A stretch of 8,899 nt of DNA from Octopus sinensis (Eukaryota), in the NCBI RefSeq assembly GCF_006345805.1, contig NW_021827989.1:1-8899 (forward strand), in the 5' to 3' direction. The position numbers were made by a program. The stretch's first letter is position 1. Every line of letters starts with the position of its first letter. This document shows, in pieces, positions 2,760-6,088 of this stretch.

Positions 2760-3581
2760 GTATATATGTATACAGCTCTTCAATGACTTCCCACAAAAAT
2801 TAAGAAATTTGCATAAGGTGGAAGTAAATGTCTTCAAAAAGGAGAGAGACATCCTCCTCTTCACAATACCGGATTAACCAACACCCTGACATGAGGTACA
2901 GACGAGGGCAGTGGAATCAATCTCCCTTATACACCAAATGTACCAATAGCTGGGACAAAGACACATACAAGAATGGTGACGCGAAACACCCAGACTGAGG
3001 AAGTCAGAGACCATGGTGTTGCTCCAGCATGACCATGGCCGCGTGGCTGAAACGAGTAAAAGAGTATATATATATATATATTCCATCAAAAAATGTGGCA
3101 GCATATTAAAATAATTTTACGGTTCAAATTATAAACAACTTATAAATAAGGGCTAAACAAAATTATTTCAATGCCAATATGCTGATAACAGACTTTTAAA
3201 TCGTCAATTTCCACATATTTACTCGCTACAGAAAAAAACACGAAGAACTGAAATCGGGTTTCTAGAGAAGAGGAAAGAATCTATTATGAGATTAATTCCG
3301 AAATTGATTCAATATAGAAATAACGAACTTTTAAAAAAAATTCTATCGGCCGGCTTTCCCCGAATTCAGTTCTTCGTGTTTTTTTCTGTAGCGAGTAAAT
3401 AATATGTGGAAATTGACGATTTAAAAGTCTGTTATCAGCATATTGGCATTGAAATAATTTTTTTAGCCCTTATTTATAAGTTATATATATATATATGTAT
3501 GTATATATATATATATATATATAGATGTATATATATATATATATTATGCATTCATATATATATATATATATTATATATATA

Positions 3582-3612
<31 letters not shown>

Positions 3613-4445
3613 ATCCTATAGCCTCAGGCTGACAAAAGCCTTGTGAGTGGATTTCGTAGACAGAAACTGAAAGAAGACTGTTGAACCTGTGTTAATTGTG
3701 GGTGTGTGTTTGTACCCCCACCATCGCTTGACAACTGATGTTGCTGCGTTTACGTCTCCGTAACCTAGTGGTTCGGGAAAATACACCGATAAAATAAGTA
3801 ATAGCCTTACAAAGAAGAAATCCTGAGAACGAGTTGTTCGACTAAAGGCGGTGCTCCAGCATAGCTGCAATCACATAAATGAAACAAGTAAAAACAATAA
3901 AAACTATGCCACTTTAATACCGAGCAACGCCGGTTATGTCTGCTAGTTTTTGTTTGATAAAAATTAATGAATATTTCACGTGTTCTCTTTTTTTAATAAA
4001 TGTATGCCTACTTTTGCACCTCCCTGTATTATATATATATATAATATATAATATATATATATATACATATAAGAGATAATGTTGTCATTGAGACCCAAAG
4101 GTGTCAGGTAATGCTGAATAGGTGCTATAGACAGAACTTAACTATGGTCTGTCTACACACACACACACACACACATACACACACACACACACATATTATT
4201 GTGTTTCGGGAGTCATTCTCTTTTACCGCCTTATTAATGCAACACACTCACCGGCGGTCTGTTTTCCATTCATTTACTTATTTATATACCAAATATAAAT
4301 AAATAAGTAAATGAGTGCAAATCAGACCGGCGAGTGTGTTAAATTAATAAGGTACTATAAGAGAATGACTCTCCCCAGACACAATAAAATATGCTTCAAC
4401 ACACGCGAATTCACTAAATAATCTTGCAAACCACAATACAAAACG

Positions 4446-4479
<34 letters not shown>

Positions 4480-4500
4480 ATATATATATATATATAAATA

Positions 4501-4558
<58 letters not shown>

Positions 4559-6088
4559 TTGTATATCAAACCCAAGCTGTTATATTCTAACTTGTTTATT
4601 CGCATAATTGCCCCTCTACATACATACATACATACATAAAGCACCTGCATTGTTAGAAATAGGAGTCAAAACAACTCTTAGCTTCATGGGAGCACTTTGC
4701 TAAAGGCTGACAAGGGAGACAGGCACACTTCCTACGACAAGTGAGATGGAGTCATATCAACGCTAATTTCAGATTTAATAAATCTTCATCAGTGATCCAT
4801 TAATCCGTCGCCGAAGGTTAATGAATTTAAGTCACCTTGTCAGCCTTATATAGAACACCATTGTCAGCCGTTAAAAAAGTGTTCTCACTTAGCTAAGAGT
4901 TGTTTTGACTCTCATTTCTAGCAATGCTGGTGCTTACTAACGCCATACCTCACTTTAATGACAAGTGTACTTGCTGCCTATCGATTCTAAATTGCGAATA
5001 TTCACCTTAATGATTTATAATTCTCACTTCACCATTTTCGGAATCAGTCGAGGTTTCCTATGGTAATCCTATGGTAATCTCTACAGAGGAAATTGTTTTT
5101 AGTAGCGGTATTGGCTATTTCCGGTTTAATTTCAGATTTAATTTCGGATTTAGAATTCTTCTAAAGCCTTCATTTTATTCGCTGATAGTTGATAATTTTC
5201 TACCTTTAGTTTTTAAACAGGAAATATTTTGAATTGTTGCACTTGCACAAATGACTAAATATTCGCTGCTGAGAACAATTCTGTCAGATGACTGTTTGAT
5301 TTGTTGATTATGTCCCCCACCAGTCACACATAGAGTAACAGTTAGACAATGTTTTGCTGATAAGGTCCAATAAGACAGAAAAAAATATCTGGAATTATTA
5401 TTGTAATGCCAAAGATAGGACTTATTCTTCACTGCATTTTATATTTAATTTATTTTAATTGATCGCATTTCTGACTTTTGTTTTATAGAATTAATTATTT
5501 AGACAATGAAGTGTTTTCTTTAATTTCAAGAAAGCACAATTTCTTAAATCTCACCACATCCAGTTTGTTTGCGCTCACTATGAACCTGTTACCTATACTG
5601 AATAATATAATGATAAATACACGTATAGCAATCTGCGTATGTATGACTATATTAAACATTGGTTCTTATTTCTCTTTTAAAGAAGGTAGAATCAGATTGG
5701 TGGGAGAGTCAGCTACCTCATATTACCTGTCCATTTACTTGTCCAAAGCATTTTCGCAAGTTTGTCCTAACCATCCGTGCATCTTTTCTGACTTTTAGTT
5801 AATCCTTGTTTCATGCGTTCTGAGTAATATAAAACTTTATTTTCGTAAGTCCCAAGTTATTCGGGTGGTTGAAAAAAACTGGGAATGAGCATTGTATATG
5901 ATGCATGGAGACTTAGAAGATATGTTCTCTGTATCACATGCAGTAGATAGGACAGGCAAGGCGGTAAACATTCCATGCTTAATATGTAATTTAGTTCTTG
6001 GTAAATGCTTATCGATAAACTTCGATGTTTACTGAAAAAATTGCATAAAGAAGGTACTCAAAGTTTCGTTAGGTACCAATAACTCTGT

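What the first reader, a model, noticed from the sequence alone, without database searches (positions are those of the whole stretch)
3137..4935. Recurring 'long hairpin with apical hammerhead' architecture: candidate ribozyme-bearing fold-back retroelement class
Seen: three fold-back units lie within 1.8 kb and share no evident sequence. Each abuts a microsatellite. One has an intact hammerhead in the loop, one a degenerate one, and one has no loop. Inference: these could be non-autonomous, PLE-mobilised elements (retrozyme-like, but with inverted rather than direct repeats) whose RNA is a rod-like hairpin cut at its apex. I cannot confirm whether this is already described in cephalopods.
Basis: inference. 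Interest (0 to 1): 0.85.

Follow-up and report, generated by a model that had tools for sequence, protein, structure and literature searches.

The report
Hairpin repeats, one carrying a hammerhead
Three unrelated hairpin-forming repeats sit next to microsatellites, and one carries a complete hammerhead self-cleaving RNA motif at its tip, which fits a worn copy of a known kind of ribozyme-bearing mobile element better than a new class.

Summary
All three fold-backs are real: U1 3137-3482, U2 4193-4392 and U3 4639-4935. Their fold z-scores are -25, -17 and -12. They share no sequence. Each abuts a microsatellite at exactly one end, with a joint placement probability of about 0.001.

U3 carries a complete type I hammerhead on the minus strand (4800-4746, cleavage after A4755).
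- It was the only hit of a strict descriptor in the window.
- No equally good hit occurred in 9000 shuffles.
- It ranked 1 of 540 same-composition decoy cores.
- No Rfam hammerhead model reports it.
- Its 10.1-11.1 pair is A-U, not the usual G-C.

U1's "degenerate hammerhead" has two core mismatches and is borderline: 24 of 540 decoys match as well. U2 has none. A further one-mismatch motif lies outside any fold-back, at 1985-1937.

Arm mismatches look like neutral decay.

Best reading: U3 is a decayed solitary copy of a Penelope-like-element or retrozyme-type hammerhead element, inserted with an inverted truncated partner. A recurring "apical hammerhead" class rests on one solid case. No eukaryotic genome was searchable, so copy number and enrichment are untested.

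The parts
3137..3482 (.). Fold-back unit U1. Arms 3137-3258 and 3359-3482, spacer 3259-3358.
   Evidence: 120 of 121 non-gap columns identical, with 4 gap columns. MFE -195.9 kcal/mol, z -25.5.
3258..3321 (+). Hammerhead-like three-way junction in the U1 spacer. The core reads GAGAAGA at 3265-3271, which is two mismatches (C3G, U4A). GAAA at 3300-3303, H17 = A3314.
   Evidence: helices I 7, II 4, III 4 bp; sites of this quality occur in 173 of 3000 shuffled windows; 24 of 540 decoy cores fit this spacer as well. No Rfam hammerhead hit.
3482..3614 (.). (TA)n array abutting the right end of U1, which is the 3' side of the strand carrying the hammerhead-like motif.
4155..4193 (.). (AC)n array abutting the left end of U2.
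   Evidence: ACACAC recurs 6 nt beyond the right end of U2.
4193..4392 (.). Fold-back unit U2. Arms 4193-4288 and 4296-4392, with 7 nt between them. No hammerhead-like motif.
   Evidence: 80 of 93 non-gap columns identical; z -17.2; best match to the core has 5-6 mismatches.
4617..4638 (.). (TACA)n array abutting the left end of U3, which is the 3' side of the hammerhead strand.
   Evidence: CATAC recurs 8 nt beyond the right end of U3.
4639..4935 (.). Fold-back unit U3. Arms 4639-4716 and 4858-4935, spacer 4717-4857. GC 0.40.
   Evidence: 65 of 78 identical; z -12.2 and -11.4.
4746..4800 (-). Type I hammerhead motif. Helix I: 4800-4793 pairs with 4754-4746 (3 bp, one bulged C, 5 bp). Core CUGAUGA: 4792-4786. 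Helix II: 4785-4771 (6 bp, 3-nt loop). GAAA: 4770-4767. Helix III: 4767-4756 (4 bp, loop GCGU). H17 = A4755, so predicted cleavage falls between 4755 and 4754.
   Evidence: 0 of 6000 and 0 of 3000 shuffles were as good. Rank 1 of 540 decoys.
1937..1985 (-). Extra hammerhead-like motif outside the finding. The core reads CCGACGA at 1976-1970, one mismatch (U4C). H17 = A1947. It is not inside a fold-back.
   Evidence: helices I 8-10, II 3, III 3 bp. (no inverted repeat; z +0.57). (no Rfam match). (z +1.31).

Best explanation
The stretch holds three unrelated short repeats that inserted independently. Each is an inverted duplication with a microsatellite at one end.

U3 is most likely a decayed, solitary copy of a hammerhead-bearing non-autonomous retroelement, of the Penelope-like-element pseudo-LTR or 'non-LTR retrozyme' kind.
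- The element proper would be about 220 nt on the minus strand (4857 down to 4639).
- Its 3' end lies at the (TATG)n array.
- It is joined head-to-head to a 78-nt, 5'-truncated inverted copy of its own 3' end (4858-4935).

On this reading the inverted repeat is a by-product of integration, not a device of the RNA. The type I hammerhead belongs to the element. Its weak helix III together with loop 3 is self-complementary, which suits cleavage as a dimer in multimeric transcripts, as described for animal type I hammerheads.

U1 and U2 share the insertion signature (inverted duplication plus a microsatellite at one end) but have no working ribozyme. If transcribed, all three would form long double-stranded RNA.

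Shown: the repeats, the motif, the microsatellite abutment and the neutral-looking decay of the arms. Inferred: retroelement nature, the mobilising enzyme, any cleavage and any transcription.
For: Hammerhead motif:
- It has an exact 11-nt core, A15.1-U16.1, H17 = A and three helices, and is the only strict-descriptor hit in the window.
- 0 of 6000 and 0 of 3000 dinucleotide shuffles gave an equal hit. A medium-strict descriptor hit 42 of 6000 and a relaxed one 176 of 6000.
- On the real sequence, the true core is the only one of 540 same-composition motifs with an exact match on a three-way junction of at least 15 bp.

Fit to described elements:
- Unit size is 297 nt (about 220 nt without the partner arm), GC is 0.40, and the fold is strongly self-paired. 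This matches the description of animal retrozymes (PMC7229834, passages).
- The 12-nt stretch from 15.1 to 16.1 is self-complementary in 6 of 6 pairs. A cofolded dimer is 9.1 kcal/mol better than two monomers. This fits the short helix III with palindromic loop and the dimeric action described in PMC4209133 (passages).
- An AUA cleavage triplet occurs in a natural hammerhead (PMC1636495, abstract in the listing).
- Inverted truncated partner copies and microsatellite insertion bias are described for PLEs (PMC8557442, passages).
- Dispersed retrozyme monomers are described in 10.64898/2026.07.22.740005 (Results).

Orientation and decay:
- The microsatellite lies 3' of the hammerhead-sense strand in U3, in U1 and near the 1976 motif.
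- Arm mismatches are not biased toward G:U on either strand. U3 has 4 versus 3, with 6 unpaired on both strands. U2 has 3 versus 2, with 8 unpaired on both.
- If the source is an octopus, which I did not verify, PLEs are present and were active there (PMC13282606, passages).
Against: - No Rfam hammerhead family reports any of the three motifs.
- The 10.1-11.1 pair is A-U, whereas G-C is called highly conserved (PMC4209133).
- The hammerhead secondary structure is 5.6 kcal/mol above the MFE of the 63-nt domain. That domain is no more stable than shuffles (z -1.24; 17 of 200 shuffles fold as well).
- There is no second copy of U3 in the window, and no tandem arrangement.
- No reverse transcriptase or GIY-YIG domain was found in the 23 of 78 open frames that I scanned, namely those outside microsatellite arrays.
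- No clear target-site duplication.
- U1's arms are 99% identical while its core is degenerate, so that core was not lost by decay after insertion.
- Microsatellite targeting is also known for LINEs, Helitrons and MITEs (PMC3812793, passages), so it does not single out PLEs.
- In a genome of gigabases, a few tens of chance motifs of this quality cannot be excluded. This is my extrapolation from a rate below 1 in 9000 windows.
Confidence: 0.4

Rival explanations
1. All three units are ordinary fold-back or MITE-type DNA transposon derivatives that prefer microsatellite targets. The hammerhead motif in U3 is then a chance match or a captured fragment with no role.
For: - The units are 200-346 bp, AT-rich (GC 0.30-0.40) and almost entirely inverted repeat.
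- DNA transposons that target microsatellites are known, such as Micron MITEs and MINE-1 Helitrons (PMC3812793).
- MITE and Tc1-Mariner families are annotated in Octopus vulgaris (PMC13282606).
- There is no Rfam hammerhead hit.
- Arm decay looks neutral.
- Short matches to the microsatellite unit lie on the far flank of each unit.
Against: - There is no clean target-site duplication at the inverted-repeat ends.
- A chance hammerhead of this quality was not seen in 9000 shuffles or among 539 decoys.
- The array lies on one side only of each unit.
Confidence: 0.25
2. A class of non-autonomous, PLE-mobilised fold-back retroelements exists whose transcript is a rod-like hairpin, cut at its apex by a type I hammerhead.
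For: - In U3, helix I of the hammerhead continues the rod, so the ribozyme does sit at the apex. Enforcing the three helices costs only 5.6 kcal/mol out of -128.9.
- U1's spacer has hammerhead topology at the same place, seen in 173 of 3000 shuffled windows at that quality.
- All three units abut microsatellites.
- The array is 3' of the motif strand in both U1 and U3.
Against: - Only 1 of 3 units has an intact core.
- U1's core lacks C3 and U4, and 24 of 540 decoys fit its spacer as well.
- U2 has nothing comparable.
- A hammerhead-like motif also occurs outside any fold-back.
- The units share no sequence.
- There is no excess of G:U over mismatches, so no sign that pairing is selected.
Confidence: 0.12
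3. The inverted duplications arose locally, by template switching or hairpin formation during replication or repair at unstable microsatellites. On this view they are not mobile elements at all.
For: - Each unit touches an array.
- No unit has another copy in the window.
- U1's arms are nearly identical.
Against: - The arms are not copies of neighbouring sequence.
- Three such events in unrelated sequence within 1.8 kb would be unusual.
- This reading does not account for the hammerhead motif.
Confidence: 0.1

Closest known systems
Animal non-LTR retrozymes (type I hammerhead repeats expressed as small circular RNAs; PMC7229834, 10.64898/2026.07.22.740005)
   Same: A type I hammerhead by descriptor. 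Unit size is within 170-400 nt, GC is below 45%, and the RNA is strongly self-paired. Helix III is short with a self-complementary loop. Dispersed monomer copies are described.
   Different: The copy is single, not a head-to-tail tandem. It is flanked by inverted, not direct, repeats. The 10.1-11.1 pair is A-U. Circular RNA and copy number are untested.
Penelope-like element insertions with pseudo-LTRs and an adjacent inverted 5'-truncated copy (PMC8557442, PMC4209133)
   Same: An inverted-repeat structure around a hammerhead-bearing segment. A microsatellite lies at the insertion site. Helix II is long (6 bp) and helix I is shorter and interrupted, as in PLE hammerheads.
   Different: There is no reverse transcriptase or GIY-YIG coding sequence in the window. 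The unit is only about 300 bp. Homology to any PLE pseudo-LTR could not be tested.
MITEs / fold-back elements, including microsatellite-targeting ones (PMC3812793)
   Same: Short, AT-rich, almost wholly inverted repeat, and sited at microsatellites.
   Different: There is no clean target-site duplication. The array lies on one side only. U3 carries a ribozyme motif, which MITEs are not known for; one search listed 7 papers holding both terms, and none is titled as describing a hammerhead inside a MITE.
Rfam hammerhead families (clan of type I/II/III, HH9 and HH10 models; names recalled, not taken from a call)
   Same: The consensus core and three-helix topology.
   Different: None of the models reports the motif at E<=10, even in a 78-nt search.

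Membership tests
Hammerhead ribozyme, type I | Conserved core C3 U4 G5 A6 N7 G8 A9 and G12 A13 A14, with A15.1-U16.1 and H17 | tested here: met
   U3 minus strand 4792-4755. Not met for U1 (two core changes) or for the 1976 site (one change).
Hammerhead ribozyme, type I | Three helices around the core, with helix I open | tested here: met
   Helix I has 3+5 bp with one bulge, helix II 6 bp and helix III 4 bp.
Hammerhead ribozyme, type I | Match to curated covariance models | tested here: not met
   No hammerhead family was listed (E<=1), 9 or 11 (E<=10).
Hammerhead ribozyme, type I | G10.1-C11.1 pair and loop 1-loop 2 tertiary contacts of canonical animal motifs | tested here: not met
   The 10.1-11.1 pair is A-U, read directly from the sequence. 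Tertiary contacts cannot be judged with these tools.
Hammerhead ribozyme, type I | Self-cleavage | not testable with these tools
   This needs in vitro transcription, or RNA ends at 4755/4754.
Animal non-LTR retrozyme | Head-to-tail tandem copies of 150-450 bp, each with a hammerhead | tested here: not met
   No periodic similarity and no second copy. There is only a borderline 65-nt trace at 5139-5198 (E 0.02; 5 of 500 shuffles).
Animal non-LTR retrozyme | Low GC and a highly self-paired monomer RNA | tested here: met
   GC 0.401; z -12.2 and -11.4.
Animal non-LTR retrozyme | Many genomic copies and circular RNA expression | not testable with these tools
   No eukaryotic genome or transcriptome collection was open.
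Penelope-like element insertion | Reverse transcriptase plus GIY-YIG endonuclease ORF | tested here: not met
   23 of 78 stop-to-stop frames were scanned. No domain exceeded its cut-off. A non-autonomous derivative would lack the ORF anyway.
Penelope-like element insertion | Inverted 5'-truncated copy beside the element | tested here: inconclusive
   The geometry fits. Without other copies, it cannot be told apart from an intrinsically symmetric fold-back.
Penelope-like element insertion | Insertion at microsatellites | tested here: met
   All three units abut an array; joint placement probability about 0.0009. This is not specific to PLEs (PMC3812793).
MITE | Terminal inverted repeats flanked by a fixed-length target-site duplication | tested here: inconclusive
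   Inverted repeats are present. The only direct repeats found are 4-6 nt matches to the microsatellite unit, offset 3-8 nt from the ends.
MITE | Multi-copy family related to an autonomous DNA transposon | not testable with these tools
   No genome or repeat library was available.

The most novel reading that the evidence does not exclude
Cephalopod genomes may hold a family, or several convergent families, of hairpin-shaped non-autonomous retroelements in which a type I hammerhead forms the apex of a rod of about 300 nt. Self-cleavage would open the hairpin into a nicked double-stranded RNA with defined ends. That step would be tied to the element's mobilisation at microsatellites, or to small-RNA or editing pathways. 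This would be an inverted-repeat counterpart of retrozymes. My literature searches returned no paper describing one.
Probability: 0.1. Interest if true: 0.65.

Novelty: new member of a known kind. Interest (0 to 1): 0.3.

Why it matters
If the U3 motif proves to be one of many conserved copies, it would add cephalopods to the animals known to carry hammerhead-bearing retroelements. My searches returned no paper describing hammerhead elements or retrozymes in octopus or other cephalopods: searches found 5, 4 and 3 papers holding the terms, none on that subject judging by titles and the passages I read.

It would also give a concrete case of how PLE-type integration produces long hairpins. Such hairpins matter in animals with very heavy double-stranded-RNA editing (PMC5625713, title seen in the listing only).

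If it is a lone decayed copy, it is ordinary repeat debris.

Tried and rejected
- **C/D-box snoRNA reading of the U3 apex.** The best Rfam hits are snoU2_19 at 19 bits (cut-off 39) and SNORD50 at 14.4 bits (cut-off 42), with E 0.5-1 in a 78-nt search. These hits cover the same UGAUGA and CUGA letters that make up the hammerhead core. Rejected.
- **microRNA hits.** These include mir-297 on arrays and MIR2593 at 44 bits (cut-off 96.2) on U2. They are generic matches to hairpins and microsatellites, all below gathering score. Rejected.
- **A second tandem copy.** A 16-nt exact repeat lies at 4764-4779 and 5127-5142. The extended alignment is borderline (5 of 500 shuffles; blastn E 0.02), and there is no periodic signal. 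Left open as a passing note.
- **Homology between units or other copies in the window.** None found.
- **Target-site duplications.** None clean.
- **tRNA-like heads.** ARAGORN found none.
- **Coding capacity.** Pfam found nothing above cut-off in the 23 of 78 frames scanned; one sub-threshold Ribosomal_L5 hit scored 18.2 bits against a cut-off of 34.9.
- **Strand-biased G:U wobble as a sign of RNA-level selection.** None.
- **Literature.** One search was badly designed (any 2 of 5 terms) and answered nothing. One search replaced it.
- **PMC13282606 supplement.** Listed but not read.
- **Figure supplements of PMC7229834 and PMC4209133.** These show mollusc and PLE hammerhead sequences. I did not see them, and they could bear on family assignment.
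- **Source organism.** Not identified by any tool.
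Full report
**What is there**

Reading the window and the inverted-repeat scan confirm three fold-back units inside 3137-4935.

| Unit | Span | Arms | Arm identity (non-gap columns) | Between arms |
|---|---|---|---|---|
| U1 | 3137-3482 | 3137-3258 / 3359-3482 | 120 of 121 (4 gap columns) | about 100 nt |
| U2 | 4193-4392 | 4193-4288 / 4296-4392 | 80 of 93 | 7 nt |
| U3 | 4639-4935 | 4639-4716 / 4858-4935 | 65 of 78 | 141 nt |

As single strands they fold far better than dinucleotide shuffles:
- U1: -195.9 kcal/mol, z -25.5, 0 of 100 shuffles as good.
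- U2: -99.2 kcal/mol, z -17.2, 0 of 200.
- U3: -128.2 and -128.9 kcal/mol on the two strands, z -12.2 and -11.4, 0 of 100 each.

The units share no detectable sequence. In all six pairwise local alignments, 69 to 162 of 200 shuffles reached the observed score. None has another copy in the window.

**Microsatellites**

With TRF at a low threshold, the window is 20.4% tandem repeat of period 6 or less, in 18 merged arrays. Each unit has an array directly at exactly one end:
- (TA)n 3482-3614, right of U1.
- (AC)n 4155-4193, left of U2.
- (TACA)n 4617-4638, left of U3.

Placing units of the same length at random in non-array sequence gives an array at one end with probability 0.114, 0.084 and 0.099. 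The product is 0.0009. So the association is more than the window's richness in arrays explains.

On the far flank of each unit, a short match to the array's repeat unit lies a few bases beyond the inverted repeat:
- ACACAC, 6 nt past the right end of U2.
- CATAC, 8 nt past the right end of U3.
- TATA, 3 nt before the left end of U1.

This hints at insertion into short pre-existing arrays. It is not a clean target-site duplication.

**The hammerhead in U3**

I wrote a descriptor requiring:
- the exact core CUGANGA;
- a helix II hairpin;
- GAA;
- an A15.1-U16.1 pair;
- a non-G at position 17;
- helices I and III.

It finds one site on both strands of the window. This is a type I motif on the minus strand:
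- Core at 4792-4786.
- Helix II of 6 bp with a 3-nt loop.
- Helix III of 4 bp with loop GCGU.
- A17 at 4755.
- Helix I of 3 bp, one bulged C, then 5 bp, which continues into the rod.

Chance estimates:
- In 6000 dinucleotide shuffles of the window, 176 had any relaxed hit, 42 had a medium-strict hit, and 0 had one as good as observed. A further 3000 shuffles also gave 0.
- Real sequence is richer in hairpins than shuffles. I therefore also kept the real sequence and replaced the core letters with all 540 same-composition permutations.
- Only the true core has an exact match on a three-way junction of at least 15 bp. It is also first for one mismatch or fewer: it has 2 sites, against a decoy mean of 0.07, and 2 of 540 motifs including itself reach 2.

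Evidence against a working or typical hammerhead:
- No Rfam hammerhead model reports the site. This held at E<=1 over the window (117 matches, none a self-cleaving ribozyme) and at E<=10 over 4600-4960 and 4735-4812.
- The 10.1-11.1 pair is A-U. PMC4209133 (passages) calls G-C there highly conserved.
- The 63-nt domain is no more stable than shuffles (z -1.24; 17 of 200 shuffles fold as well).
- The active secondary structure lies 5.6 kcal/mol above the MFE, both alone and inside the unit.

Points in its favour:
- An AUA cleavage triplet is known from a natural hammerhead (PMC1636495, abstract in the listing).
- The 12 nt from 15.1 to 16.1 are self-complementary in 6 of 6 pairs. A cofolded dimer is 9.1 kcal/mol better than two monomers.
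- This matches the short helix III with palindromic loop, and the dimeric action, described for animal type I hammerheads (PMC4209133; PMC7229834).

**The other motifs**

Allowing up to two core mismatches gives six sites in the window, against 1.79 +/- 1.37 in shuffles. 35 of 3000 shuffles have six or more.

- **U1 spacer, plus strand (3258-3321).** It has hammerhead topology, with helices of 7, 4 and 4 bp and A17 at 3314. But the core reads GAGAAGA, so C3 and U4 are both changed. Sites of this helix quality occur in 173 of 3000 shuffled windows. In the decoy test limited to this spacer, 24 of 540 cores fit as well or better (42 of 540 at a looser helix threshold). It is suggestive at best. 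U1's arms are 99% identical, so a once-intact core was not lost by decay after the duplication.
- **U2.** Nothing comparable; the best match has 5-6 mismatches.
- **A motif the finding did not list, minus strand 1985-1937.** Its core is CCGACGA (U4C), with helices of 8-10, 3 and 3 bp. It is not in a fold-back (no inverted repeat, z +0.57), has no Rfam match and has a weak fold (z +1.31).

Hammerhead-like motifs in this window are therefore not confined to inverted-repeat spacers.

**What the arms say**

If the hairpin were kept for its RNA, arm differences should favour G:U on the transcribed strand. They do not.

| Unit | Differing columns | G:U on plus strand | G:U on minus strand | Unpaired on both |
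|---|---|---|---|---|
| U3 | 13 | 4 | 3 | 6 |
| U2 | 13 | 3 | 2 | 8 |

This looks like neutral decay of duplications that were perfect when made. U1 would be recent, and U2 and U3 old.

**Interpretation**

The pieces fit descriptions in print.
- PLE repeats "may be direct or inverted". An inverted 5'-truncated copy often lies beside the element. Hammerheads sit in the pseudo-LTRs. Insertion is biased to microsatellites such as (TA)n (PMC8557442, passages).
- Animal non-LTR retrozymes are low-GC, highly self-paired units of about 170-400 nt with type I hammerheads (PMC7229834).
- A 2026 preprint argues that retrozymes derive from PLE pseudo-LTRs and reports dispersed monomer copies (10.64898/2026.07.22.740005; abstract; Results).

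I therefore read U3 as a solitary, decayed copy of such an element. It would be about 220 nt on the minus strand, with its 3' end at the (TATG)n array, joined to a 78-nt inverted copy of its own 3' end.

In both U3 and U1, the array lies 3' of the motif-bearing strand. The 1976 motif also has (TA)n 38 nt to its 3' side. This suits a retroelement with a simple-repeat target or tail. Two or three orientations is weak evidence, though.

Microsatellite targeting does not single out PLEs. Waldo (ACAY), Mino (AC) and Dong (TAA) LINEs do it too, as do some MITEs and Helitrons (PMC3812793, passages).

No reverse transcriptase or endonuclease coding sequence is in the window. I scanned 23 of 78 stop-to-stop frames, those outside arrays, and none exceeded its Pfam cut-off.

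If the source is an octopus, PLEs, MITEs and Dong-R4 LINEs are all annotated there (PMC13282606, passages). No tool identified the organism.

**Limits**

- Copy number, family consensus, covariation, enrichment in spacers and expression are therefore all untested.
- I did not see the figure supplements of PMC7229834 and PMC4209133, which show mollusc and PLE hammerheads.
- Literature searches returned no paper on hammerhead elements or retrozymes in cephalopods. Searches found 5, 4 and 3 papers holding the terms, none on that subject by title or by the passages read. This covers only the open-access library searched.

**Verdict**

The hairpins, the microsatellite association and one hammerhead motif are real and beyond chance.

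The proposed new class is not established. It rests on one solid instance, and that instance is better explained as a member of the known PLE/retrozyme world, inserted in the inverted form already described for PLEs.

Interest is modest unless a genome-wide search shows a conserved family.

Noticed in passing
window 1937-1985, minus strand: A hammerhead-like motif with one core change (CCGACGA, U4C). Helix I has 8-10 bp, helix II 3 bp with a GGAA loop, helix III 3 bp, and A17 is at 1947. It lies outside any fold-back, with the (TA)n array 1710-1908 sitting 38 nt to its 3' side. No Rfam match, and its fold is weak.
   Followed up: partly
window 4764-4779 and 5127-5142; 5117-5152: A 16-nt exact direct repeat (TAATTTCAGATTTAAT). 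It links the helix II/GAAA part of the U3 hammerhead to a 12-nt x3 tandem repeat 363 nt away. The extended alignment 4764-4828 against 5139-5198 is 68% identical, with blastn E 0.02 and 5 of 500 shuffles reaching the score. It may be a trace of a second decayed copy, or chance.
   Followed up: partly
window 1-326: Two tandem copies (period 168, 90% matches) of a SINE-like repeat. SINE-like tails are also visible by eye near 2990-3060 and 3840-3900. ARAGORN finds no tRNA gene in the window.
   Followed up: no
window 4393-4404, 4936-4948, 3130-3136: The flank opposite the abutting array holds a 4-6 nt match to that array's repeat unit, offset 3-8 nt from the end of the inverted repeat: ACACAC for U2, CATAC for U3, TATA for U1. 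This hints at insertion into short pre-existing arrays with a few extra bases.
   Followed up: partly
window 4835-4847 and 4861-4872 versus 4703-4715: Inside U3, the inner arm motif around GGCTGACAA occurs once on the plus strand and twice in inverted orientation. This gives two alternative registers for the inner stem and a small side hairpin (4851-4885 region in the minus-strand fold).
   Followed up: no
whole window: 20.4% of the window is tandem repeat of period 6 or less, in 18 merged arrays. These produce many sub-threshold Rfam microRNA hits (mir-297, mir-3149, mir-466 and others), which are artefacts of the repeats.
   Followed up: yes
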